Of a stretch of 32,000 bases of DNA, positions 2,847 through 26,460 are shown one piece after another (positions within the stretch are counted from its first letter, which is position 1; every line of letters begins with the position of its first letter). The translations under genes and the position numbers were made by a program. Source of the stretch: Candidatus Heimdallarchaeota archaeon (GTDB taxonomy: Archaea; Asgardarchaeota; Heimdallarchaeia; Heimdallarchaeales; Kariarchaeaceae); NCBI GenBank assembly GCA_030149205.1, contig JASBSB010000006.1:570001-602000 (forward strand), read 5' to 3'. The notes under the pieces were generated by a model. It did no database searches, was not told the origin of the DNA, and saw only the letters and a list, made by a program, of their open reading frames with translations.

Positions 2847-4145
2847 TTGGCAAAGAAGAAAGCAGAGGAAAAAGATGTAATAGTAATTGAGGCAGATCAG
2901 TCACTTGAAGCATTAACAGATATTCCTGTTAGTGAACCAATAGCGCAAGGAGTCAAACCAGACAAGATGAAATTAACTGATGTCCCTGGTCTTGGGCCAA
3001 AAACAGCATCTCTACTTGAAGAAGGAGGTGTCACAAATCCCCAACAGTTAATGGAAAAGCAATTAGGTGAATTAGAAGCTCTAGGTGTAAACAGACCAAT
3101 TGCTAAAAAACTTAAGTCTAGCATCGTTGAACTATTCCCAGATTTGTATGAGGCATATACTGAGGAAATGAGTTTGGAAGATATAGAAGGTATAGGACCA
3201 ACAACAGCCAAATCCCTAAGAGAAAAAGGTGTTAGCCTCGGTTTACTTGAGACAACTCCTGTAAAGGAGCTTGAGGAAAGATATGGATTGACAACAGCTG
3301 CAGCCACAAAATATCAATCTTTTATCACAGAGAATATTAGAGGAGGTTTCTTTACTAACGCTTTCGAGGTGTTAGAACAACAAAAATCTGCGAAAACCTT
3401 TACCTTTGGTGTTGAGAGTTTAGACAATTTAACTTTCGTTGAGGAACTTGGTGTAGGTGGTGTCAGGCTTGGTGATACCTACGAATTTTTTGGTGCGTTT
3501 AGATCTGGAAAATCACAACTCTGTCATCAGCTTGCTGTTGCGGTTCAACTTCCAGAAAAGCTTGGTGGACTTGGAAAAAAGGCAATCTATATTGACACTG
3601 AGGGAACATTTTCTCCAGCAAGAATAGCACAGATAACTGAAGGTTTCAAGAAGGAAAAAGGTTGGAAAGTTGAAGTAGACGATGTTCTCAAAAATGTAAT
3701 GTATGCCCGAGCAAAGAACAGTGACATCCAACAAGCTATTGTGATTAAACTTTTAGAAATTTTAAGTCAATCACCAGATGAATACGGAATACTAATTTTA
3801 GATTCTGTAACCGCTCACTTTAGAGCTGAATATTCCGGGAGAGGTACACTTGCAGACAGACAACAAACACTGAATGGTCATCTTAACACTCTCCACAGAT
3901 TAGCAGACACATATAATATTGCAATAGTCGTTACAAATCAGGTTCAAGCGAACCCAGCTCAATTTTTTGGTGATCCAACCACTGCTGTTGGAGGAAACAT
4001 TATGGGTCATTGGGCAGGTACAAGATTTTACCTGAGAAAATCAAAGGGTGATAAAAGAGTTATCCGTGTATTTGACAGCCCAGTGCTCGCAGAAAGCGAA
4101 GCTGTATTTGAAATAACAACTCATGGATTGATTACTTCAGAATAA
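2847..4145 (+). CDS. radA: DNA repair and recombination protein RadA (Rad51/DMC1 family) with an extended N-terminus carrying two HhH domains
   Basis: Walker A GAFRSGKS, YIDTEGTFSPARI, Walker B ILILDS, FRAEYSGRGTLADRQQ and VVTNQVQANP..FFGDP...GGNIMGH are canonical RadA motifs. TTG start at 2847; alternative ATG at 2967. Confidence 0.95.
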   Translation: MAKKKAEEKDVIVIEADQSLEALTDIPVSEPIAQGVKPDKMKLTDVPGLGPKTASLLEEGGVTNPQQLMEKQLGELEALGVNRPIAKKLKSSIVELFPDLYEAYTEEMSLEDIEGIGPTTAKSLREKGVSLGLLETTPVKELEERYGLTTAAATKYQSFITENIRGGFFTNAFEVLEQQKSAKTFTFGVESLDNLTFVEELGVGGVRLGDTYEFFGAFRSGKSQLCHQLAVAVQLPEKLGGLGKKAIYIDTEGTFSPARIAQITEGFKKEKGWKVEVDDVLKNVMYARAKNSDIQQAIVIKLLEILSQSPDEYGILILDSVTAHFRAEYSGRGTLADRQQTLNGHLNTLHRLADTYNIAIVVTNQVQANPAQFFGDPTTAVGGNIMGHWAGTRFYLRKSKGDKRVIRVFDSPVLAESEAVFEITTHGLITSE

Positions 4146-6999: not shown

Positions 7000-7096
7000 T
7001 TGCTCACATAATATGCATCAGATTTTATGGCAATTAATTAGTTTTTACGTAAGTATTTAGATTAATTTATAGGGCAAAAAATACCAATAAGAATAT

Positions 7097-7342
7097 ATGA
7101 AAATTCAAGTAGTGTCTGCTATTGGTGGCGGTGCACCTATTGATATTGAAGTAGAACCTCATGACACAGTAGCAAAAGTTAAGGCAATGGTTGCCCAAGA
7201 AAAAAGAATCCCAGCAAGTACAGTCATTGTTGTATTTAGGGGTCAACAACTCGATGATTCAGAGACACTAAAGGCGATTGGTATGGTAGATGGTGATAAA
7301 TGCTATCTAATTACCAGGACTGAAGGTGGACTTGAATATTAA
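7097..7342 (+). CDS. Ubiquitin-like modifier precursor (beta-grasp; di-Gly at residues 77-78 followed by LEY)
   Basis: EVEPHDTVAKVKA, IP, FRGQQLDDSETL and R..GG align with eukaryotic ubiquitin (EVEPSDTIENVKA, IP, FAGKQLEDGRTL, RLRGG). Its stop abuts the E1 start. Confidence 0.92.
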   Translation: MKIQVVSAIGGGAPIDIEVEPHDTVAKVKAMVAQEKRIPASTVIVVFRGQQLDDSETLKAIGMVDGDKCYLITRTEGGLEY

Positions 7343-8320
7343 ATGGATGACCGGTACAATAGACAACAACTTATCCCCGATTGGAATCAAGACGCTTTAA
7401 AAAACTCAACTGTCTTGGTATTAGGTGTCGGGGCCACAGGATCTTATTTAGCAACTAATGTAATTTTGGCTGGGGTCGGAAAACTAATACTCGTTGACTT
7501 TGATACAATTGAATTATCAAATCTTAACAGACAATTATTGTTTACAGAAGCAGATATTGGTAAAAATAAAGCGATGGTTGCAAAAGAAAAGCTACAGGTA
7601 TTGAATCCAGATTCTACAATTATATCATTCCCTCAAGCCATGGAAAAACTACCAAAGGAGTTACTCAAAGGAATAAATGTGATTGCATGTTGTTTAGATA
7701 CTTTTAAGGGGAGAAGATGGGCGAATTCACTCGCAATTCGAGAGGGGGTCCCTATAATTAATGGAGGCATGTATGGATTTTTAGGTGATGTTCAAACTAT
7801 AATCCCAAACGTGACACCGTGTTTTGAGTGTCAACCATTGATTTCACAAGAAAAATTATCTCAGGCATGTTCTCCACTTGGAGAAGCCAGAATTGGGATG
7901 GAAAAACCTGAAGCACCTTTACCCTCTGTTTCAACACTCTCCTCAATTATTGCTGGATTGATGTCACAAGAAATATTGAAAATTCTAATGGATATCGGGA
8001 AACCTATTGAAAACTTCATGTTTTATGACGGTTTAAACCAAGAATTCACAAAATTACAGTTGAAAAGAAATGAAAACTGTCCTATCTGCGGTTCAAAATT
8101 TGAATTGGAAGAGCGAGAGGCATTAGTTTTTGAAAATGAGGATGTTAAAGACTTAAGAATGAGAATAGCTTTGGCATTTGGACTTGCGCAACCAATGTTG
8201 ATTGTAAAGGGGAAGATTTTAGTAGATGAACAGAGGGTGGAGCTTGAAAATGGGACAAAGATATTTGTCTCTGATGAAAGATTAGCGAAGCCTATCTCAG
8301 TTAAAGTAAAAGTTGAATAA
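7343..8320 (+). CDS. E1-like ubiquitin-activating enzyme (ThiF/MoeB/UBA adenylation domain, Zn-binding CxxC pairs, C-terminal small domain)
   Basis: RYNRQ, GVGATG nucleotide-binding loop, DFDTIELSNLNRQ, CFEC and CPIC zinc ligands, candidate catalytic Cys176 (SQACSP), and about 75 extra C-terminal residues. Directly follows the Ubl gene. Confidence 0.9.
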   Translation: MDDRYNRQQLIPDWNQDALKNSTVLVLGVGATGSYLATNVILAGVGKLILVDFDTIELSNLNRQLLFTEADIGKNKAMVAKEKLQVLNPDSTIISFPQAMEKLPKELLKGINVIACCLDTFKGRRWANSLAIREGVPIINGGMYGFLGDVQTIIPNVTPCFECQPLISQEKLSQACSPLGEARIGMEKPEAPLPSVSTLSSIIAGLMSQEILKILMDIGKPIENFMFYDGLNQEFTKLQLKRNENCPICGSKFELEEREALVFENEDVKDLRMRIALAFGLAQPMLIVKGKILVDEQRVELENGTKIFVSDERLAKPISVKVKVE

Positions 8321-8376: not shown

Positions 8377-9171
8377 TCAAAGAAGAATGAAATATAGAAA
8401 AATCAAATACGGGATTCCAACTGTTATAAAAGACTCAAAAATTGATAACTTGGCTGCCTTACTATTCCCATAAACTGCAAATGATGCACCCAGTAACCAC
8501 CCAACACCAATCAGGAGTTTAATGATAATACCAATAGGACTATTTGTCATATTCTGAATACCCTGTGAAAATTGATTATACACCTCTGAGCTAGGAGAAT
8601 AAGAGGGGGAAAATAATCGTAATGGTAGAGTTATAACTAATGCAACAAGCACAGGAACCAATGAGTATCCAAGTATTGATCTGACTTTAATTGGTTCATT
8701 CTGTCCTCCTAAACTTCGATTTAAAGTGTTAAGTAAACGTGCAGCAACCTTCCAAACCACTGTAAAAACAACAGTGAACAAAATTGGCCATAAAAGCAAG
8801 AAAACTATAATTGGTAACAAGGAAATGAAAAATATCAATATATTCGTTAGTACATTTGTTCCATACGCAAAGTTAACTTTAGTATATGATATCCCATCAA
8901 ATTTATAGAGCATTATCAGCATGTGGAGTGTGAAAGCTAGACTAATAAAATAGATAGCAAATCTTCCCCCAACAACATCCGGAACAAGTACAATCTCTTG
9001 CGTTGTAAGCCTTGGTTCTTGAAACATGTTTCTTCCCCTGCGGAAGGCATCTCTCCAGTTGATCTTTATTCCAGATCTTCTGATATGTTCTGCAGTTAAA
9101 TCATAACCACACCATACACAGGTCACATATTCCACTGGAACAAGTTCATTGCATGATGGGCAGGTCTGCAT
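8377..9171 (-). CDS. Zinc-ribbon + Yip1-like multi-TM membrane protein
   Basis: N-terminal CPSC...CVWC ribbon, then about 5 TM segments with a VRSILGYSLVP motif reminiscent of Yip1 domains. Start reset to ATG 9171 (GTG 9186 possible); the track start at 9321 would leave only 15 bp before the divergent aRF1 gene. Confidence 0.6.
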   Translation of the reverse strand: MQTCPSCNELVPVEYVTCVWCGYDLTAEHIRRSGIKINWRDAFRRGRNMFQEPRLTTQEIVLVPDVVGGRFAIYFISLAFTLHMLIMLYKFDGISYTKVNFAYGTNVLTNILIFFISLLPIIVFLLLWPILFTVVFTVVWKVAARLLNTLNRSLGGQNEPIKVRSILGYSLVPVLVALVITLPLRLFSPSYSPSSEVYNQFSQGIQNMTNSPIGIIIKLLIGVGWLLGASFAVYGNSKAAKLSIFESFITVGIPYLIFLYFILL

Positions 9172-9336
9172 CTCAATCTGACTCACAACCCTCAGATAAC
9201 CTTTAAGATTAAATAGCTTCTTCTTTGTAGAACATGATTCATAAGAAATTTTTTGTTCTTTTGAGCAGTGTTCAATATACTTCACTGTTGCCTTCCGAAA
9301 TTGAATTAAATATGAGAACACTTTCTAAAATATAAG

Positions 9337-10986: not shown

Positions 10987-11766
10987 ATGACATTAAAAGT
11001 AGCCCTTTCTGGGCCAAAACTTCTAAAAAGCATTCTTGAACCAATCCCTCCAATCAATGAGGGTGTGATCCTTGAGTTCGCAGAAGACGGATTACAACTA
11101 CACACGGGGATGGAAGGACTAATATGGGCAATTGAAGCAAAACTCAAAAAATCTGAATTTGAAACCTATGAAGTCTCGGATGATAACAGAGTCTTCAATG
11201 TCAGTTTAAAAGAGCTCACAGACTTTATCAAAACTGCAAGCCCTTCTGAAACCTTAACAATTGGATATGATGAGCAAGAGGGAACTCTCAAATTTATTTT
11301 GTCTAGAGACCAGCTCCAAAAGGAAATTGACCTTAGAATTCTTGGAATTAGTGAAGATTACAGATTCAGGAATCTAATAAACTTCCAATCAAAGCTAAAT
11401 CTCAGTCTATTACTTTCTGTTAATCTCCTAAATGAGGCGATGAAAATCTCCACTCTTGGAGGAACACATGTCGAAATGGTTATGGACAAAAATTCGCTTA
11501 ATTTTGTGTCCAAAGGAACCACAAAGAAGGCAAATATGCTGATCGAGTTTGATAATGAAGAAGTCTCAAATGTGACATATAAGTCCGAAAAGGAGAAGTC
11601 TGTTGCTATTTTTGCTCTTGATTACCTCAAAAACCTCTCCAAATTCTCAAAAATACAGGATAATGTATTGCTATGCTTTGATGACTCAAAACCACTCCTT
11701 GGAATATTTCAATTCCCCGAAGAAGCAGGATATGTGGCAATAGCTATTGCTCCAAGATCAAATTAA
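10987..11766 (+). CDS. pcn: PCNA-family DNA sliding clamp (divergent)
   Basis: 259 aa; LLKSILEPI..INE.VILEFAEDGL, FETY, F.VSLKELTDFIK, FALDYLKNLSK, KPL and the C-terminal IAPR match the PCNA pattern; lies between eS27 and Gins15. Confidence 0.8.
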   Translation: MTLKVALSGPKLLKSILEPIPPINEGVILEFAEDGLQLHTGMEGLIWAIEAKLKKSEFETYEVSDDNRVFNVSLKELTDFIKTASPSETLTIGYDEQEGTLKFILSRDQLQKEIDLRILGISEDYRFRNLINFQSKLNLSLLLSVNLLNEAMKISTLGGTHVEMVMDKNSLNFVSKGTTKKANMLIEFDNEEVSNVTYKSEKEKSVAIFALDYLKNLSKFSKIQDNVLLCFDDSKPLLGIFQFPEEAGYVAIAIAPRSN

Positions 11767-11776
11767 GTGAAAGAGA

Positions 11777-12331
11777 ATGCTTTACGACAAGCTTTTGAAC
11801 GTCTGGAGAAGAGAAAGGCTAGATAATAAAATCCTACAGATTGAGGAAGACTTCTTCCAAAAATATCAAACCTACCTAAATCATCTTGAAACAATTTCAA
11901 AAGACTCTGTCGAGAGTGAACTGACACAGAAGGTATTCTATAAAAGATTTCTTCGGGTAAACTACCTCATAAACGATCTCATTCGTATGAGACTGGAGAA
12001 GTTCTATCTTGCAATTTTGAAGAACCAACCATTACCAGAAAATATTTCGATGGAAGAGACAACATTCTCTAAACAACTCCAAAAACTGATCAAGAATCAT
12101 TACGATGAAGCATTAGGTCTAAACAAGGAAAAAGTAGAAGAAGACTTCATGTCTGTGGATGACACCTATGAATTCTGCTTATTAACAAAAGATGAAAATG
12201 ATAAAATTATAGGAGGAGACCTACAGGTATACGGACCCTTTAAGAAAGGGGATATTGCCCTCTTACCCACTGAAAATGTGAGGAACTTTGTCATCCGAAA
12301 TATAGGAAGAAAACTAACCATATTAGATTAA
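11777..12331 (+). CDS. gins15: Archaeal GINS subunit Gins15 (Gins51, Psf1/Sld5-like)
   Basis: Helical A domain (WRRER...EDFFQK...LIRMRLEK) plus C-terminal B domain (IIGGDLQVYGPFKKGDIALLPTENVRNFV); next to PCNA. Confidence 0.85.
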   Translation: MLYDKLLNVWRRERLDNKILQIEEDFFQKYQTYLNHLETISKDSVESELTQKVFYKRFLRVNYLINDLIRMRLEKFYLAILKNQPLPENISMEETTFSKQLQKLIKNHYDEALGLNKEKVEEDFMSVDDTYEFCLLTKDENDKIIGGDLQVYGPFKKGDIALLPTENVRNFVIRNIGRKLTILD

Positions 12332-20097: not shown

Positions 20098-23000
20098 TTA
20101 TTGACCGGATGTACGTTTAAAGAATCCTTTTTTGTTTACATATTTTACTATCAACGCACCAATGACGAATGTAGAGATAACTGTAACATCCATCGGAATT
20201 GCAAATCCATTCTGTTGTCCAAGTTTTTGGAAAATAAGTGGGCTGTTGAATGAAAATACCTGAGAGTTGGTGCCTGTGTAACCCAATCCAGCGTTAAGTG
20301 AAAGATAAATTGTTCCGTTTGTGATGGGGAGATGAATAAGGAAACTGGTCTCTGTTATATCCAATGTAAAGGTTTGATTTCCAATTACCAACATACCCTT
20401 GATTGGAACACCATTGAGTGAGAGTTGAGTTCTTAGGTCTATGGTTGTCAACTGAAACAGTCCAGTTCCATTATAGAAGGTAGGTGTCACAGATATTTGA
20501 ATTGGAATATCCAAAAGCATAAATTTCCCTGTGAGAGTCAAATCAGCATAGTTTTGTTTATGTCTTGTTATGTTGTAATTAAGGTCCTGACCTTGATGGA
20601 TCTGTGAATAGAATCCCTGAAGTAATTCAGAGGAGGTCAAGTTGTTTCGACTGTAGATGATAGAGTTATTAGAATAAATTATGATATCATAACTTGCATT
20701 ATTGACTTGATCACTCAGTGTTCCGTTAATAAGACGATCCCAAAACTGATCAGAAATCTTGTACTTGAAGGATTCATATCTTGGGTTCACATTCATGGGA
20801 ACTTCAGTGGCAGTGCTAGAAATCTGTACACCACCTGTGGTTGAGATATAAAGGGTATACCTCCCGGGTTTTAGATCAATTGATGATTTAAGAAGAGTAA
20901 ATGCCCCAAATCTGTTTGTTTGCATTGTAGTTTTCCCCCATGGGGTTGAAATATAAACACTCACGTTGTAGAGAGGTTGACTTGAATTTCCATTGTTGTA
21001 AACATAAAATGTTTGATTAATTGTACCCAGATAAGAAGTATTAATCATCTTCACCTCAATCACAGGTGTTGGTGCTCTCCATCCAAGGTCAACAATAAGA
21101 GGTGAGCCCTGGACAAAAAGTGTGTTTTCTTGATACTCGAAGATTATTCTGTAACTCCCTGTAAGGGAGAAGTAAAGTGAATAATATGAGGAGGAACCAA
21201 GCTGTATCTTGCCAGAAACCCCAGTGTTTATCCAGTTGCCATTCTTGAATTGTAACAACAGCCATTTAACACTCCCTTTGTGTATCACTCCTGTTTCATC
21301 ATTAACTGAGAAGGCTAAAGTTTGATTAAATGTCACACCATAATCTTTGGTGTGAGCTCTGTCCAACAGAACTCTGACTGTCTCCTTTTGAGTGGTGGGA
21401 AGAGTATAATTTACAGAACTGCTACTGAGGAGACTGTTTCCATTAAATTGTACTGTGAGGGTGTAAATGCTCCCAGGAACCACATCACGGAATATGGAAT
21501 GAAGTGTGATAAACCCAGATTGATTGGTGAAGGTTTCAAACGAAAAGAATATCTTATTGTTCATTAACAGGGTAAACCTAACAGATTGATTTGACAACCC
21601 CTGTCCATAGGAGTTTTCAGTCAACCTTATACTCACATTTAATCCATCTGTGTAGATTGGTTGAATAGATTGACTGTTGATCAGTGTAAGTGTGGTACTT
21701 TGAAGTATACTTAAGCGAGCATGTAGAATCACTCCAGCATAGACCGATGTTGAACTTGCCGTGAGTTGGATGTTATAAGTGCCAAAGGGAACATCTGGTT
21801 TTATCATAAATTCCAAAATACCATTCTTTATGCTTGATGAAGCCAAGCTCGTCCAGCTTCCATTAATTTGGATTGAGAGAGTGGCACTAACACCAGAAAC
21901 CTTCTGGCCATCATTATCAAGCAGGATATATCTAAGAGTTACAGATTCCAATCTGTTTACCTTAACATCGTTAAACTGGACTGAATATTTTTCATGAGCA
22001 ACAGTGAGGCTAAATGACGAGTTCACGTTTTGCCTTATCCAACCCTGGTTTGGAATAACCACCAGAATCTTGTAATTACCAGTCACCACAGTTGTGTTTA
22101 AGCTGTTGATTGATCTTGTGTCATAACGACCCCAGAGGGTGTAGGTAGACCCACCCGTGCCATAATTTATCCAGTATATATCTGCAAAGTAGCTTTGAAG
22201 AATACTGCCATTGTCTAATTTAACTACAAACATAGGGTGAAAGATGTCATATCTTTCTACAGTGCTGTTTAGGAGGGAGACATTTACTATTGATTGAAAC
22301 TTGGTGGTGATGAGCTTTGAATTTCCTAAAACATAAGAGTTTGAACCAATCTCAACTTTATACTGCTCACTAACAGTAGATTGAGGAATTACAAAGGCAA
22401 ATCCACCGTTAACAGTTGATATATTCCCCATTATAGTCCACTGCGACCCTGAAAAAATGTAGAGGAGCACATTAACCTCAGGGGGTGAGACTGTGTTGAT
22501 GGATATTGTTCCTGTTATGGCTGGATTAGAGTTTATTTCACTCATCTTTACATATAGCTCTCCTGTGGGGGCTTTAGAGAAAACTTTGATATTCTCTGAA
22601 AATTGATGAAAGTTGAAATTCTTATCTTCTATTAGCAGAAAGAGCTCATGTGACATGGTAAATCTGACATTAAAGGTAAAGGTGACATACCCTTTAGAAT
22701 CTGTTAAACCTTGTCCTATTAGGATAGTTACTGAATTTAAGTTATAAGTCACAGTTACCTGCATCCCTTTAAGGGGATCTCCCAGGCTGTTTGTGACAAT
22801 AACCTGAATTCTTGAATTATTGGTGTAGACAAGTTCAGTGAGATTGACTGTCCTATTGAATGTATCTTCTAATATTGTTCTACTTATAGAGGTTGTACCA
22901 TCTAGATATGATAAGTGAGTGCTATGTATACTTAACAGCAATAATGAACCTGCGGGAGAATCTAAGGTATAATTGAGTGTCATATAGCCAGTTGAGTTAG

Positions 23001-26000
23001 TATATCCTATAATTGAGATGGAGGAATAGAGGCTCTTAAAAGTCACATTTACTGTTGCACCTGAAACTGGAAGATAGTTGTCTGTCTGTATTAAAAACAG
23101 GAAGTAAACTGTATGGTTGTATTTCAGGATCTGAGGATTTGTCAGATCAGTTATAACCACTGAACGTTTGTAGACTGCGGAGGAAATTGAGGCTTGTGAT
23201 TTTTCATATCCCAGAAAACTGTTCATTTGTACTGTTAGGTTAAAGTTTTTCTCATTTGGAATCGTATAGGTAAAGTTAGCAAAACCACTGCTGTCAGTTT
23301 TCAAGGTCAATAGTGAGCCATCAAGGTAGATATTCAGTGTGGCAGAGGAAATTGGGTTCTTTAGCTCATCAACTGCTTGAATACCTACATGAATACGATC
23401 AGCAACATAAATCTTCCCAACTTGAATTCCATAAATTTTCAAAGAAGTTTTCATTCCAGTAACCTGTAAGGTCGATAAACTGGTGTTTTTAAGAAAGCTA
23501 CCCTGTCCAGCAAATGTTACATTTAATTGATAAGTTCCAGGTGTTATGGAGTTTGGAAGCGCAAATGTGGTAAAACCATTGACATCTGTCGTGCGTACCC
23601 AAGAATAGCTCCCAAGAGAGAAACTTAAAACTTGGTTACTGAGTTTATTGCCTAATGCATCCTGAAGTGTCAGGTTTCCGTAGGTTGAACTACTATACGT
23701 AATACTTGAGGGATTTTGTACTGTTAGTCTGGTTTCTATGGCTGTAGTAATTAGTTGAAATTGCTGTGTTGTTGAACGGAAGTTTATATTCTCTGGAAGC
23801 CTCCATTCGAAGACATATGAACCCAGATATGTCAAGAGGACTTTGTAATTCATTGATACATAACCATTGCTATCAGTTATCAAAGGCGTTGGTGTACTGA
23901 TCTTAACCCAAGCACCATTATAATACCAGATATCAATGTTTAAGTTTGACATGGGCTTATTTTGTCCATCGAGAACTGTGGCATTCAAATTGACTGTTTG
24001 CCCAATATGCACGTTGTAAGCTGTTGTTGGTATCAAAATTTTATAACTTGCCTTATTCACCATAAGGTCAAAAGTTAGAGATGAGTTTAAGTAAGGATAG
24101 ACATTATAAGGCGAGGTATAACTTAATAGGAGGGTTTGAATTCCAGTGGCATTAAAGATGATTGGTATTGCAATCTGACCACCTACTGTCTTGATATTTC
24201 CAAGGGACTTGCTATTCAAATACAAGTTAAATAACGCACCATCTTCGATAGGAAGCCCTAAGGTATCGGTGACATTCAATTTAACTGTCGTGGGTGAATT
24301 GTAAAAAAACTGCTGGTTAGTTGTGGTACCGATGATTTGTAACCCTGTCAAGTTCCAATAGAATTGTGTTAGAGCAAAGCTGTAATTAGCGTGTTGAATA
24401 TTGGCCTGAAGGTAAGGGAATCCCACCAGAAATTGTTGCTTAAAGAAATTGAGACTGTCAAAACCTTTGGGTAACGTCCACTGGATATTTACAAGACCAT
24501 TCTTGTTACTCTTGAATGTTCCAACCTGATAATCCTTGAAAGAACCATTGTAGGCACGTGAATAGAGGGTTACATCAGCACCGCTAATCCCTCTGTTTTG
24601 TTTATCCTTAACATAAAAAGAGAAATTTCCACCATGGTAATTTATGTATTGAATTGGATCTGAGGGTGTCCCTAATGAAACTTGAATCCCTTTAGTGTCC
24701 AACAATCCAAGTCTTGAGGCATATCCACTGGATTTACTGATGTTTAATATGACATCGTATGTCATAGCATTATAATAACTGGAACCTGTGAACACATATC
24801 TGTAATTCATTACCTTTGCACCTGGATTTGCCACGGTAAAATTAAACAATCCAAAGATTGAGGTGGTTGAAGATGTGTAGGTCCACTTGAGACCTGTTGA
24901 GTTATAAGTGTATAAATCAATTGATGCATTCAATAGATTTGATGTGCTGGCCTCAATTCTCCCACTTAATGTGATAGTTGGGGAGGAAGTGTTAACAGGG
25001 GTAGTAAGGTTGTAAAATCTTGGGTTACCCTTTAAAATCTCTGTTGAAATGTTGATAGATGTTGTTTTGTAATTTTGTGAATTATGAACTGCATAAACAT
25101 AGTTTGGAAAGATGCCAACGGTGGTGTTTTGAAGAAAGTTGAATTGAAATGAACCAGAGCTTCCGGTCGTAACTCTCCCAATAAATTGAGTGTTAAATTT
25201 GTAGAAATTAAGCTCTTGGTTGACTAATGGAACATTTGAAGAATCTAGCAGATTACCAGTTATTGATACTAAACTTGAACCAGGAAAGTCTCCCGAACCA
25301 TAAAACCCTTTTGAACCGAGTATATTAATTTTTGAACTTTGAAGGTTTACTGTAAAATTAGAAATTGAATGATACTCCTTGGATTGAATGATCATGTCAG
25401 CTTTCAAGAGGTATAATCCTTCAGAGATCAAAGGAGTATAAGGGACAGTTGCTATACCACCAGAGGAACTTAGAGAAGACCCAATGTTCACCCAGAATGT
25501 GTTATAATAAATTGAAAAGTCGACCGTTATCCCTGTGACGGGTAATCCAGAATCTTTGATGAACAAAGAAATATCTGCGACCTTATTATAGTAGGTGACC
25601 ACCGGAGGAAAATTGAATGAAAGACTTGAGGCTTGTGTAACCACAACTGATGCTCCATCGAAAGAGGGGGAAAATATAGCTAGATCATCTGTAAAGTATG
25701 AAAGTAGCCATACACTACCTAATCTATTTGGAACATAATTATAAGTAATAGAACTGGGTGTGACTGTCTCTTTTTTGAGAACGGAGGTTAGAATGCTTTC
25801 GATTGCAACCAATGAACCTGTATTAGAACCCCCATCAAACAGGTATAAAGTTCCATCTTGTCCTTTAGGAAATTGAATTTGTGTGACAGTATACCCATTA
25901 TAGTTAAGTTCCAGAGTATATGACACAGCTTTAGTGAGAATAACAGAACTAGGATAACTACTGGAGACCTGTGAAGAGTTAAATAACAGCCATAAAGTAC

Positions 26001-26460
26001 CTGTTTTTTTCACCATTGCTCGAGCACCAGTTGTGTCAATAACACCATCTACGATGGTTGTTAAACCATTTTTAAGTTTCCAGTTAATCTGAGAATCCAG
26101 TGTAACACCTTTGACTGGAATTCTAAAACCATTGATTTGTTCATCTTGGGATTGAGTCCAAGTGAAAACCGGATGTGTGGCATTTTGATATGAATTAGTA
26201 AATTTTGTAGACCCTATTCTTGAAACCACAGTTGCCTGATAAAGAACATTCATTCCAAAAATCCCCAAAGTGTTGTCTACGTTTTTTACTGATGCTTTGA
26301 GTGGATAAGTTTGACCGAGATTCATTAGTTTAGAAGGAACTGTAAGGGTGGTATCTGTATTTGCATAATATGCATATGCGTTAGAATTTAAGCTGATCTG
26401 GCTTATTGTTAAAAATACCAACAATCCTATTACAAATAGACTTATGGATCTAAGTTTCAT
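20098..26460 (-). CDS. Giant secreted, C-terminally membrane-anchored surface protein with tandem Ig-like beta-sandwich repeats
   Basis: 2120 aa; signal peptide ending in NAYA; Ser/Thr/Asn-rich with many N-x-S/T sequons; recurring T(D/N)xxG(Y/F) motifs (TDSNGY, TDVNGF, TDSSGF, TNSTGY, TDSKGY, TNQSGF, TNRFGA); C-terminal TM helix followed by basic KYVNKKGFFKR. Confidence 0.85.
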   Translation of the reverse strand: MKLRSISLFVIGLLVFLTISQISLNSNAYAYYANTDTTLTVPSKLMNLGQTYPLKASVKNVDNTLGIFGMNVLYQATVVSRIGSTKFTNSYQNATHPVFTWTQSQDEQINGFRIPVKGVTLDSQINWKLKNGLTTIVDGVIDTTGARAMVKKTGTLWLLFNSSQVSSSYPSSVILTKAVSYTLELNYNGYTVTQIQFPKGQDGTLYLFDGGSNTGSLVAIESILTSVLKKETVTPSSITYNYVPNRLGSVWLLSYFTDDLAIFSPSFDGASVVVTQASSLSFNFPPVVTYYNKVADISLFIKDSGLPVTGITVDFSIYYNTFWVNIGSSLSSSGGIATVPYTPLISEGLYLLKADMIIQSKEYHSISNFTVNLQSSKINILGSKGFYGSGDFPGSSLVSITGNLLDSSNVPLVNQELNFYKFNTQFIGRVTTGSSGSFQFNFLQNTTVGIFPNYVYAVHNSQNYKTTSINISTEILKGNPRFYNLTTPVNTSSPTITLSGRIEASTSNLLNASIDLYTYNSTGLKWTYTSSTTSIFGLFNFTVANPGAKVMNYRYVFTGSSYYNAMTYDVILNISKSSGYASRLGLLDTKGIQVSLGTPSDPIQYINYHGGNFSFYVKDKQNRGISGADVTLYSRAYNGSFKDYQVGTFKSNKNGLVNIQWTLPKGFDSLNFFKQQFLVGFPYLQANIQHANYSFALTQFYWNLTGLQIIGTTTNQQFFYNSPTTVKLNVTDTLGLPIEDGALFNLYLNSKSLGNIKTVGGQIAIPIIFNATGIQTLLLSYTSPYNVYPYLNSSLTFDLMVNKASYKILIPTTAYNVHIGQTVNLNATVLDGQNKPMSNLNIDIWYYNGAWVKISTPTPLITDSNGYVSMNYKVLLTYLGSYVFEWRLPENINFRSTTQQFQLITTAIETRLTVQNPSSITYSSSTYGNLTLQDALGNKLSNQVLSFSLGSYSWVRTTDVNGFTTFALPNSITPGTYQLNVTFAGQGSFLKNTSLSTLQVTGMKTSLKIYGIQVGKIYVADRIHVGIQAVDELKNPISSATLNIYLDGSLLTLKTDSSGFANFTYTIPNEKNFNLTVQMNSFLGYEKSQASISSAVYKRSVVITDLTNPQILKYNHTVYFLFLIQTDNYLPVSGATVNVTFKSLYSSISIIGYTNSTGYMTLNYTLDSPAGSLLLLSIHSTHLSYLDGTTSISRTILEDTFNRTVNLTELVYTNNSRIQVIVTNSLGDPLKGMQVTVTYNLNSVTILIGQGLTDSKGYVTFTFNVRFTMSHELFLLIEDKNFNFHQFSENIKVFSKAPTGELYVKMSEINSNPAITGTISINTVSPPEVNVLLYIFSGSQWTIMGNISTVNGGFAFVIPQSTVSEQYKVEIGSNSYVLGNSKLITTKFQSIVNVSLLNSTVERYDIFHPMFVVKLDNGSILQSYFADIYWINYGTGGSTYTLWGRYDTRSINSLNTTVVTGNYKILVVIPNQGWIRQNVNSSFSLTVAHEKYSVQFNDVKVNRLESVTLRYILLDNDGQKVSGVSATLSIQINGSWTSLASSSIKNGILEFMIKPDVPFGTYNIQLTASSTSVYAGVILHARLSILQSTTLTLINSQSIQPIYTDGLNVSIRLTENSYGQGLSNQSVRFTLLMNNKIFFSFETFTNQSGFITLHSIFRDVVPGSIYTLTVQFNGNSLLSSSSVNYTLPTTQKETVRVLLDRAHTKDYGVTFNQTLAFSVNDETGVIHKGSVKWLLLQFKNGNWINTGVSGKIQLGSSSYYSLYFSLTGSYRIIFEYQENTLFVQGSPLIVDLGWRAPTPVIEVKMINTSYLGTINQTFYVYNNGNSSQPLYNVSVYISTPWGKTTMQTNRFGAFTLLKSSIDLKPGRYTLYISTTGGVQISSTATEVPMNVNPRYESFKYKISDQFWDRLINGTLSDQVNNASYDIIIYSNNSIIYSRNNLTSSELLQGFYSQIHQGQDLNYNITRHKQNYADLTLTGKFMLLDIPIQISVTPTFYNGTGLFQLTTIDLRTQLSLNGVPIKGMLVIGNQTFTLDITETSFLIHLPITNGTIYLSLNAGLGYTGTNSQVFSFNSPLIFQKLGQQNGFAIPMDVTVISTFVIGALIVKYVNKKGFFKRTSGQ

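What the first reader, a model, noticed from the sequence alone, without database searches (positions are those of the whole stretch)
7097..8320. Eukaryote-like ubiquitin precursor with a C-terminal LEY propeptide, coupled to its E1
Seen: the Ubl ends ...RTEGG-LEY-stop and its TAA directly abuts the E1 ATG. Established: E1 adenylation needs a free C-terminal Gly-Gly, so the LEY must be removed by a protease, as in eukaryotic Ub/SUMO/NEDD8 precursors and in the Caldiarchaeum system processed by an Rpn11/JAMM protease. Most archaeal SAMP/Urm1 modifiers end at GG. No JAMM or other peptidase, E2 or RING gene is adjacent, so the pathway is dispersed rather than operonic.
Basis: partly seen in the sequence, partly recalled or inferred. 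Interest (0 to 1): 0.62.

Follow-up and report, generated by a model that had tools for sequence, protein, structure and literature searches.

The report
Asgard archaeal pro-ubiquitin and its E1
This is the ordinary ubiquitin gene of a Heimdall-group Asgard archaeon, made with a three-residue throw-away tail that has to be trimmed before its neighbouring activating enzyme can use it, an arrangement already shown in Caldiarchaeum and reported for another Asgard lineage.

Summary
7097-7342 encodes an 81-aa ubiquitin ending RTEGG-LEY-stop, and the E1 ATG follows at once (7343-8320). A contig from a second study shows the same codons. The E1 is a conjugation enzyme: invariant Cys176 plus a C-terminal domain matching the E2-binding UFD of UBA3/UBA2. 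The genome (Kariarchaeaceae, 93.5% complete) holds an E2, nine RING matches, an ESCRT cluster and one Rpn11-type JAMM elsewhere; sulfur transfer has its own MoaD and MoeB-like genes. LEY is not a signal: 141 Asgard ubiquitins carry 79 different tails, 44 carry none, LEY occurs once, and in three congeners the tail is just the overlap with the E1 start. Pro-ubiquitins are published for Caldiarchaeum and a helarchaeote, and dispersal of these genes in Kariarchaeia is published too. The one addition: the only Rpn11-type JAMM found has a C-terminal membrane helix, so trimming may happen at the membrane (inferred, untested). The scan had already noted that anchored JAMM in this genome and the tail overlap and E1 UFD on other DNA. 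Verdict: new member of a known kind, low interest.

The parts
7097..7342 (+). Pro-ubiquitin gene, 81 aa; the only PF00240 match in the genome
7325..7330 (+). Gly77-Gly78 codons, invariant in 24 aligned homologues; predicted mature C-terminus
7331..7339 (+). LEY tail; unconserved in sequence and length among relatives
7340..7345 (+). TAA-ATG junction, stop directly followed by the E1 start; spacing not conserved in relatives
7343..8320 (+). E1 activating enzyme, 325 aa, UBA3-like: adenylation domain, two CxxC zinc pairs (160/163, 246/249), catalytic Cys, C-terminal UFD
7868..7870 (+). Cys176, invariant in 51 homologues, 13 residues after the first CxxC on a flexible loop; inferred thioester-forming cysteine
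8108..8317 (+). Ubiquitin-fold domain (UFD) of the E1; the six best structural matches are UBA3, UBA2 and plant E1 UFDs
7058..7073 (+). AT-rich TATA-box-like element (TTTATA at 7066-7071, 26-31 nt before the ATG), kept upstream of the gene in all four genomes of the genus; candidate promoter of a leaderless Ub-E1 transcript
   Evidence: promoter role inferred
8377..9321 (-). Yip1-like membrane protein convergent with the E1 (PF04893 E 0.0013, below cut-off); the same Ub-E1-Yip1 order lies beside E2, RING and ESCRT-I genes in six genomes of another family of the class
   Evidence: cluster described in 10.1101/2023.07.25.550441

Best explanation
This is the core ubiquitin-E1 pair of a Kariarchaeaceae (Heimdall-group Asgard) archaeon. 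The ubiquitin is translated with three extra residues. A JAMM zinc protease, most likely the single Rpn11-type enzyme at C4:52606-53478, cuts after Gly78. The E1 adenylates the freed Gly-Gly, forms a thioester on Cys176 and hands ubiquitin through its UFD to the UbcH5-like E2 (C8, ending at 172148), and RING proteins direct it to substrates, some of them probably read by the UEV/ESCRT-I proteins. The tail has no specific sequence role: it is drifting sequence that the protease makes harmless. Shown here: sequence, domain make-up, presence of partners, variability of the tail. Inferred: cleavage, which protease does it, every catalytic step, and the targets.
For: E1: G28, G30, G33, D54, N62, R63, K76, D119, R124, C160, C163, C176, C246 and C249 are invariant in 51 homologues. 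The full model is closest to UBA3 (E 4e-28). The C-terminal domain alone gives Z 8.0-9.7 to six E1 UFD entries (1y8x: Z 9.4, rmsd 1.5, 69 aligned), ahead of free ubiquitin folds. Partners: one E2 with HPN and active-site Cys, best matches UbcH5/Ubc4; nine RING matches, six above cut-off; JAMM with E28, H87, H89, S97 and D100 invariant in 23 orthologues, best PDB match the Caldiarchaeum Rpn11 (E 3e-25). Predicted JAMM-ubiquitin complex: score 0.80, best control 0.00, runs agree in at least 96% of contacts, partner pLDDT at least 88; the mark was reached by 58 of 80 solved and 2 of 110 mismatched pairs; the like complex 6fnn is solved, so this shows likeness only. Tail: 11 of 11 family genomes are tailed with 11 different tails; 141 ubiquitins give 79 tails of 1-21 aa and 44 without; in three congeners the tail is the other reading frame of the E1's first codons. 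Precedent: full-length Caldiarchaeum pro-ubiquitin is refractory to E1 until Rpn11 cuts it (PMC5654768); the helarchaeote cascade works with the SPKN tail removed (10.1101/2023.07.25.550441).
Against: No activity was measured and no protease gene is linked to the pair. A second, JAMM1-type protease (C2:221190-221621) could do the cut, and the assembly is 93.5% complete. In Caldiarchaeum Rpn11 some bulky residues just after Gly-Gly block cleavage (C79E, G80W; PMC6043591), so L-E-Y has to be tested. Neutrality of the tail is argued from variability only.
Confidence: 0.88

Rival explanations
1. The tail is trimmed by the soluble 143-aa JAMM1-type protease, a general carboxypeptidase or an enzyme missing from the assembly, and the membrane-anchored Rpn11 acts only as a deubiquitinase on membrane cargo.
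For: The 143-aa JAMM has a full motif. P. furiosus JAMM-1 is promiscuous (PMC6043591). Rpn11-type JAMMs are kept in lineages whose ubiquitin has no tail (PF01398 in 50 of 50 genomes), so trimming is not their only job.
Against: Caldiarchaeum JAMM cuts SAMP precursors but not pro-ubiquitin (PMC6043591). The 143-aa enzyme scores only E 0.1 against an Rpn11-type profile. No C12, C19, C48 or OTU peptidase was found (three of these searches had no ringing control).
Confidence: 0.25
2. The tail is a selected regulatory gate: a holding state that lets the cell control where or when ubiquitin becomes active.
For: Tails are near-universal in the order (33 of 35 genomes read). Glu and Gly never occupy the first tail position, and E/D/P/G are rarer there than further on (3/79 against 38/252, p=0.006).
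Against: No residue or length is conserved, and tailed and tail-less forms are mixed within single families. The first-position bias is not significant among G-starting codons alone (p=0.17), and kin are not independent. The bias would also follow from mere selection for cleavability.
Confidence: 0.15
3. The pair serves sulfur transfer or SAMP-type E2-independent tagging, not an E1-E2-E3 cascade.
For: The E1 is a ThiF-family protein and databases often name homologues MoeB/ThiF.
Against: The genome has a separate MoaD ending at Gly-Gly among moaA, moaC and moaE and a separate MoeB-like ThiF. The window E1 has a UFD. The modifier matches PF00240, not ThiS. Orthologues sit beside E2, RING and ESCRT genes across Asgard lineages.
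Confidence: 0.04
4. The in-frame TAA between the genes is read through, or marks a recently split ubiquitin-E1 fusion, so LEY is a linker.
For: Both ORFs share a frame with a single stop between them. One database protein, P0083, looks like a 417-aa fusion.
Against: P0083 exists only if its one TGA, at the junction, is read as Trp; its other two Trp codons are TGG. Frame is not conserved in relatives (11 of 26 in frame, p=0.41). No other long homologue was found (weak search).
Confidence: 0.03

Closest known systems
Ca. Caldiarchaeum subterraneum pro-ubiquitin/E1/E2/small RING operon with Rpn11 (PMC5654768, PMC6043591; PDB 2mqj, 6fj7, 6fnn, 6fjv)
   Same: Ubiquitin with Gly-Gly at the same position (78) followed by a tail; E1 with zinc site, catalytic Cys and C-terminal ubiquitin-like domain; Rpn11-type JAMM; a separate SAMP/MoaD and JAMM system in the same genome.
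   Different: The tail is 3 aa, not 9. E2, RING and JAMM are unlinked. The Rpn11-type JAMM ends in a membrane helix.
Asgard ubiquitin-ESCRT clusters (Hatano et al. PMC9192718; Lu et al. 10.1101/2023.07.25.550441, Hel_GB_B pro-ubiquitin with SPKN tail)
   Same: Same ubiquitin family (the Hel_GB_B gene is locus L151 here, 43% identical, tail SPKN); E1-E2-RING cascade reconstituted there; non-clustering in Kariarchaeia and a Yip1 gene in the Hodarchaeia cluster already described.
   Different: Here only Ub-E1 and the Yip1-like gene stay together. I found no paper that tests trimming of an Asgard pro-ubiquitin or surveys the tails.
Eukaryotic NEDD8/SUMO/ubiquitin precursors and the NEDD8 E1 subunit UBA3
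   Same: Tail after Gly-Gly removed before activation; E1 fold with UFD.
   Different: Single-chain 325-aa E1; no UCH, USP, OTU or Ulp peptidase found; the Lys48 position is Gln.
Archaeal SAMP/UbaA/JAMM1 and MoaD/MoeB sulfur carriers
   Same: Beta-grasp modifier with Gly-Gly and a ThiF-family activator.
   Different: Those functions have their own genes in this genome; their activators lack the E2-binding UFD (own knowledge).

Membership tests
Archaeal eukaryote-type ubiquitin system (Caldiarchaeum/Asgard) | Modifier of the ubiquitin family (PF00240) with conserved R-x-x-Gly-Gly | tested here: met
Archaeal eukaryote-type ubiquitin system (Caldiarchaeum/Asgard) | E1 with adenylation motifs, zinc site, catalytic Cys and C-terminal UBL/UFD | tested here: met
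Archaeal eukaryote-type ubiquitin system (Caldiarchaeum/Asgard) | Active E2 (HPN motif plus Cys) in the genome | tested here: met
Archaeal eukaryote-type ubiquitin system (Caldiarchaeum/Asgard) | RING-type E3 candidates in the genome | tested here: met
   nine matches, six above cut-off
Archaeal eukaryote-type ubiquitin system (Caldiarchaeum/Asgard) | Rpn11-type JAMM with intact catalytic motif | tested here: met
Archaeal eukaryote-type ubiquitin system (Caldiarchaeum/Asgard) | All genes in one operon (typical, not universal: non-clustering is published for Kariarchaeia) | tested here: not met
Archaeal eukaryote-type ubiquitin system (Caldiarchaeum/Asgard) | Tail cleavage, E1 thioester, E2 transfer and isopeptide conjugation | not testable with these tools
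   shown only for Caldiarchaeum (PMC5654768) and, for conjugation, a helarchaeote (10.1101/2023.07.25.550441)
SAMP/MoaD sulfur carrier with UbaA/MoeB | Modifier of the ThiS/MoaD family (PF02597) | tested here: not met
   the only PF02597 match is C8:136456-136695; the window protein matches PF00240
SAMP/MoaD sulfur carrier with UbaA/MoeB | Activator without an E2-binding UFD | tested here: not met
Ubiquitin fusion precursor (Ub-L40/S27a type) | Ubiquitin fused in frame to a following protein | tested here: not met
   stop at 7340-7342; the apparent fusion P0083 is a TGA misreading

The most novel reading that the evidence does not exclude
In this organism and many other Asgard archaea the only Rpn11-type protease is tail-anchored in the membrane, while the single ubiquitin gene makes an inactive precursor. 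Every new ubiquitin would then have to be matured at the membrane, next to ESCRT and membrane RING ligases, and the freely drifting tails would be a worked example of a deubiquitinase turning into an obligatory maturase by neutral ratchet. Support: C-terminal hydrophobic helix in 30 of 30 order-level JAMM loci and in many other Asgard lineages; a single-contig 1.42-Mb genome (G061, 98% complete) has a tailed ubiquitin and one PF01398 gene, which is anchored.
Probability: 0.4. Interest if true: 0.5.

Novelty: new member of a known kind. Interest (0 to 1): 0.24.

Why it matters
As found, it adds one more genome to a known pattern and matters little. The useful by-products are a census showing that Asgard ubiquitin tails are common and unconstrained, and a named candidate protease, which make the maturation step of Heimdall-group ubiquitin directly testable with three small recombinant proteins. 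If the anchored Rpn11 is the obligatory maturase, ubiquitin supply in close archaeal relatives of eukaryotes would be tied to the membrane, unlike the soluble precursor-processing enzymes of eukaryotes.

Tried and rejected
Ubiquitin-E1 fusion: P0083 is a TGA-as-Trp gene call; the search for longer homologues gave nothing else but is weak. Conserved in-frame or zero-gap junction: not seen. Gly-Gly codons doubling as the E1 ribosome-binding site: the AGGTG ends 14 nt before the ATG, while such 5-mers peak at 5-10 nt in this genome; dropped. Tail present only where a JAMM is present: uninformative, because PF01398 rang in 50 of 50 genomes, tailed or not. First-position bias of tails: inconclusive. 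Cysteine deubiquitinases C12, C19, C48 and OTU: not found in a 93.5% complete assembly; for C12, C19 and OTU no control genome rang, so absence is not shown. The soluble 230-aa JAMM paralogue of congeners: not found in this genome; in relatives it lies beside a divergent E2 and, where the locus reaches far enough, a second E1, which this genome also appears to lack. Profile comparison of the E1 C-terminus with the ubiquitin alignment gave nothing; structure resolved it. The sigma-70 promoter scan was at chance level and does not suit archaea. No RNA holder listed. Literature searches for a membrane-anchored Asgard JAMM returned no describing paper; the library is incomplete. My own regular expression for RING fingers failed; the Pfam search replaced it.

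Full report
Observation. The window reads GGT GGA CTT GAA TAT TAA ATG at 7325-7345. ORF 7097-7342 (81 aa) therefore ends Gly-Gly-Leu-Glu-Tyr, and ORF 7343-8320 (325 aa) starts on the next base. The first matches Pfam ubiquitin (E 2e-12), the second ThiF (E 3e-63). The best single-domain PDB matches of the small protein are 2mqj, 6fj7 and 6fnn at E about 1e-20, far ahead of eukaryotic ubiquitin monomers at about 1e-9; 2MQJ is Caldiarchaeum ubiquitin (PMC6043591). A deep contig that may be the genome's source is identical here. A depth-3 contig from another study covers 7270-7559 with two differences, neither in the tail or stop. The tail is real.

Organism. The genome G000 has 3.3 Mb and is 93.5% complete. 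Genomes of the same family include records named Kariarchaeota FT_008 and Heimdallarchaeota RS678, and close E1 homologues are labelled Kariarchaeaceae. I place it in Kariarchaeaceae, a Heimdall-group Asgard family.

The E1 is a conjugation enzyme. The glycine-rich loop, the D, NR, K and DR adenylation residues, two CxxC pairs and Cys176 are invariant in 51 homologues. The model (pLDDT 85) is closest to UBA3, the NEDD8 E1 subunit (E 4e-28). The last 76 residues folded alone (pLDDT 87) match the E2-binding UFDs of UBA3, UBA2 and a plant E1 in the top six places (Z 8.0-9.7; 1y8x Z 9.4, rmsd 1.5 over 69 residues). Foldseek ranks the same entries first, though only at E about 1e-3. Sulfur transfer is served separately by a MoaD that ends at Gly-Gly among moaA, moaC and moaE and by a second ThiF protein on C7.

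The rest of the pathway is scattered. One E2 with HPN and active-site Cys lies on C8 and is closest to UbcH5/Ubc4. Two further E2-fold matches go with ESCRT-I: one directly precedes Vps28. There are nine RING matches and an ESCRT cluster at C8:40453-45822. In relatives the same Ub-E1 pair lies beside ESCRT genes (family f2) or within a cluster with E2, RING, Yip1-like and ESCRT-I genes (family f5), and full operons occur in Hermod-, Hel- and Atabey-type genomes. The window keeps Ub, E1 and the convergent Yip1-like gene of that cluster. Lu et al. already state that ubiquitin and UEV-Vps23 are not clustered in Kariarchaeia and that the Hodarchaeia cluster has a Yip1 gene (10.1101/2023.07.25.550441). 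A TATA-like element 26-31 nt before the ATG is kept in all four genomes of the genus, which suggests the pair has its own promoter (inference).

The tail is not a signal. The mature part is strongly conserved (22 invariant columns in 24 sequences, including R74, T75, G77, G78). What follows Gly-Gly is not. All 11 family genomes have a tail and all 11 differ. Among 141 distinct Asgard ubiquitins, 44 end at Gly-Gly and the others carry 79 different tails of 1-21 residues; LEY occurs once. In three congeners the E1 start codon lies one base after the Gly-Gly codons, so the tail is simply another frame of the E1's first codons. Spacing and frame between the genes vary. The apparent fusion protein P0083 comes from reading one TGA as Trp. 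Acidic residues, Pro and Gly are scarce at the first tail position (3/79 against 38/252), which would fit the block that Glu at this position puts on Caldiarchaeum Rpn11 (PMC6043591). The effect is not significant within G-starting codons (p=0.17), so I count it as inconclusive.

Which protease. Two JAMMs were found. The 290-aa one at C4:52606-53478 is closest to Caldiarchaeum Rpn11 (E 3e-25) and keeps E28, H87, H89, S97 and D100. The 143-aa one at C2:221190-221621 is of the prokaryotic JAMM1 type. In Caldiarchaeum, Rpn11 cuts pro-ubiquitin and the other JAMM does not (PMC6043591), and uncut pro-ubiquitin is not activated by E1 (PMC5654768). A predicted complex of the C4 JAMM domain with this ubiquitin scored 0.80 against a best control of 0.00; runs agreed in at least 96% of contacts and partner pLDDT was at least 88; the mark was reached by 58 of 80 solved and 2 of 110 mismatched pairs. 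Residues 70-81 of ubiquitin and the catalytic residues are in the interface. Since 6fnn is a solved like complex, this shows likeness, not binding. The C4 enzyme ends in a hydrophobic helix (mean hydropathy 2.3), as do all 30 order-level loci examined and orthologues in many other Asgard lineages, whereas the JAMMs inside Borr- and Atabey-type ubiquitin operons are soluble 140-149-aa proteins. Congeners have a second, soluble Rpn11-like paralogue, but it lies with a divergent E2 and a second E1, a set not found in G000. So the best candidate for trimming here is membrane-anchored. JAMMs are also kept where ubiquitin has no tail (50 of 50 genomes), so deubiquitination is probably the older job and trimming a side activity that lets tails drift (inference).

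Comparison with what is known. Every defining component of the Caldiarchaeum/Asgard ubiquitin system that can be tested by sequence is present, except operon linkage. An Asgard pro-ubiquitin with an SPKN tail was described, and its E1-E2-RING cascade reconstituted, by Lu et al.; that gene is locus L151 in my set. Heimdall ubiquitins were aligned in PMC5654768 and shown to bind UEV in PMC9192718. I found no paper on the tail census or on the anchored JAMM, but the library is partial. Earlier notes of this scan already cover the anchored JAMM of this genome, the tail overlap in a congener and the E1 UFD in another genome. I reached the first two before reading the notes and tested the third structurally afterwards.

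Verdict. Observation confirmed, interpretation supported, novelty modest: a new member of a known kind. Interest 0.24. The most novel open reading, obligatory maturation of ubiquitin at the membrane, has a probability of about 0.4 and would merit about 0.5.

Noticed in passing
G000 C4:52606-53478 (L001:964-1836, minus strand): Rpn11-type JAMM with a helical stalk and a C-terminal membrane helix; the anchor is kept in 30 of 30 order-level loci and in many other Asgard lineages. It lies downstream of a type II/IV secretion ATPase gene on the same strand.
   Followed up: yes
G000 C8:171687-172148 (L002:1450-1911): The E2 has no ATG/GTG/TTG before its first helix. An ATT codon stands where relatives have ATG, and two other genomes have ATA or ATT there, so it probably starts at a non-standard codon.
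   Followed up: partly
L155-L160, L173 (congeners and other genomes of the order): A second cassette of divergent E2, soluble 230-250-aa JAMM and a 360-390-aa protein with a hydrophobic start, with a second E1 of about 420 aa in L158 and L159; not found in G000.
   Followed up: partly
L175:523-1776 (protein P0083): A database ubiquitin-E1 'fusion' that is an artefact of reading a TGA stop as Trp.
   Followed up: yes
window 2847-4145: RadA/Rad51 of 432 aa with a long N-terminal part carrying helix-hairpin-helix matches; congeners have the same length.
   Followed up: no
window 10987-11766 and 11777-12331: Divergent PCNA/Rad1-like sliding clamp next to a GINS51-like gene.
   Followed up: no
window 20098-26460, 26497-29811, 29963-31989 (minus strand): Large ORFs (2120, 1104, 427 and 248 aa); the 1104-aa and 427-aa proteins have no Pfam match.
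   Followed up: no
L246, L247: In two genomes of one family the 10-residue ubiquitin tail contains a second Gly-Gly, while a sister genome has no tail.
   Followed up: no
families f11 and f14: No match to this ubiquitin profile at E 1e-12 in 71 and 92 genomes of two large Asgard families; their ubiquitins are divergent or absent.
   Followed up: no
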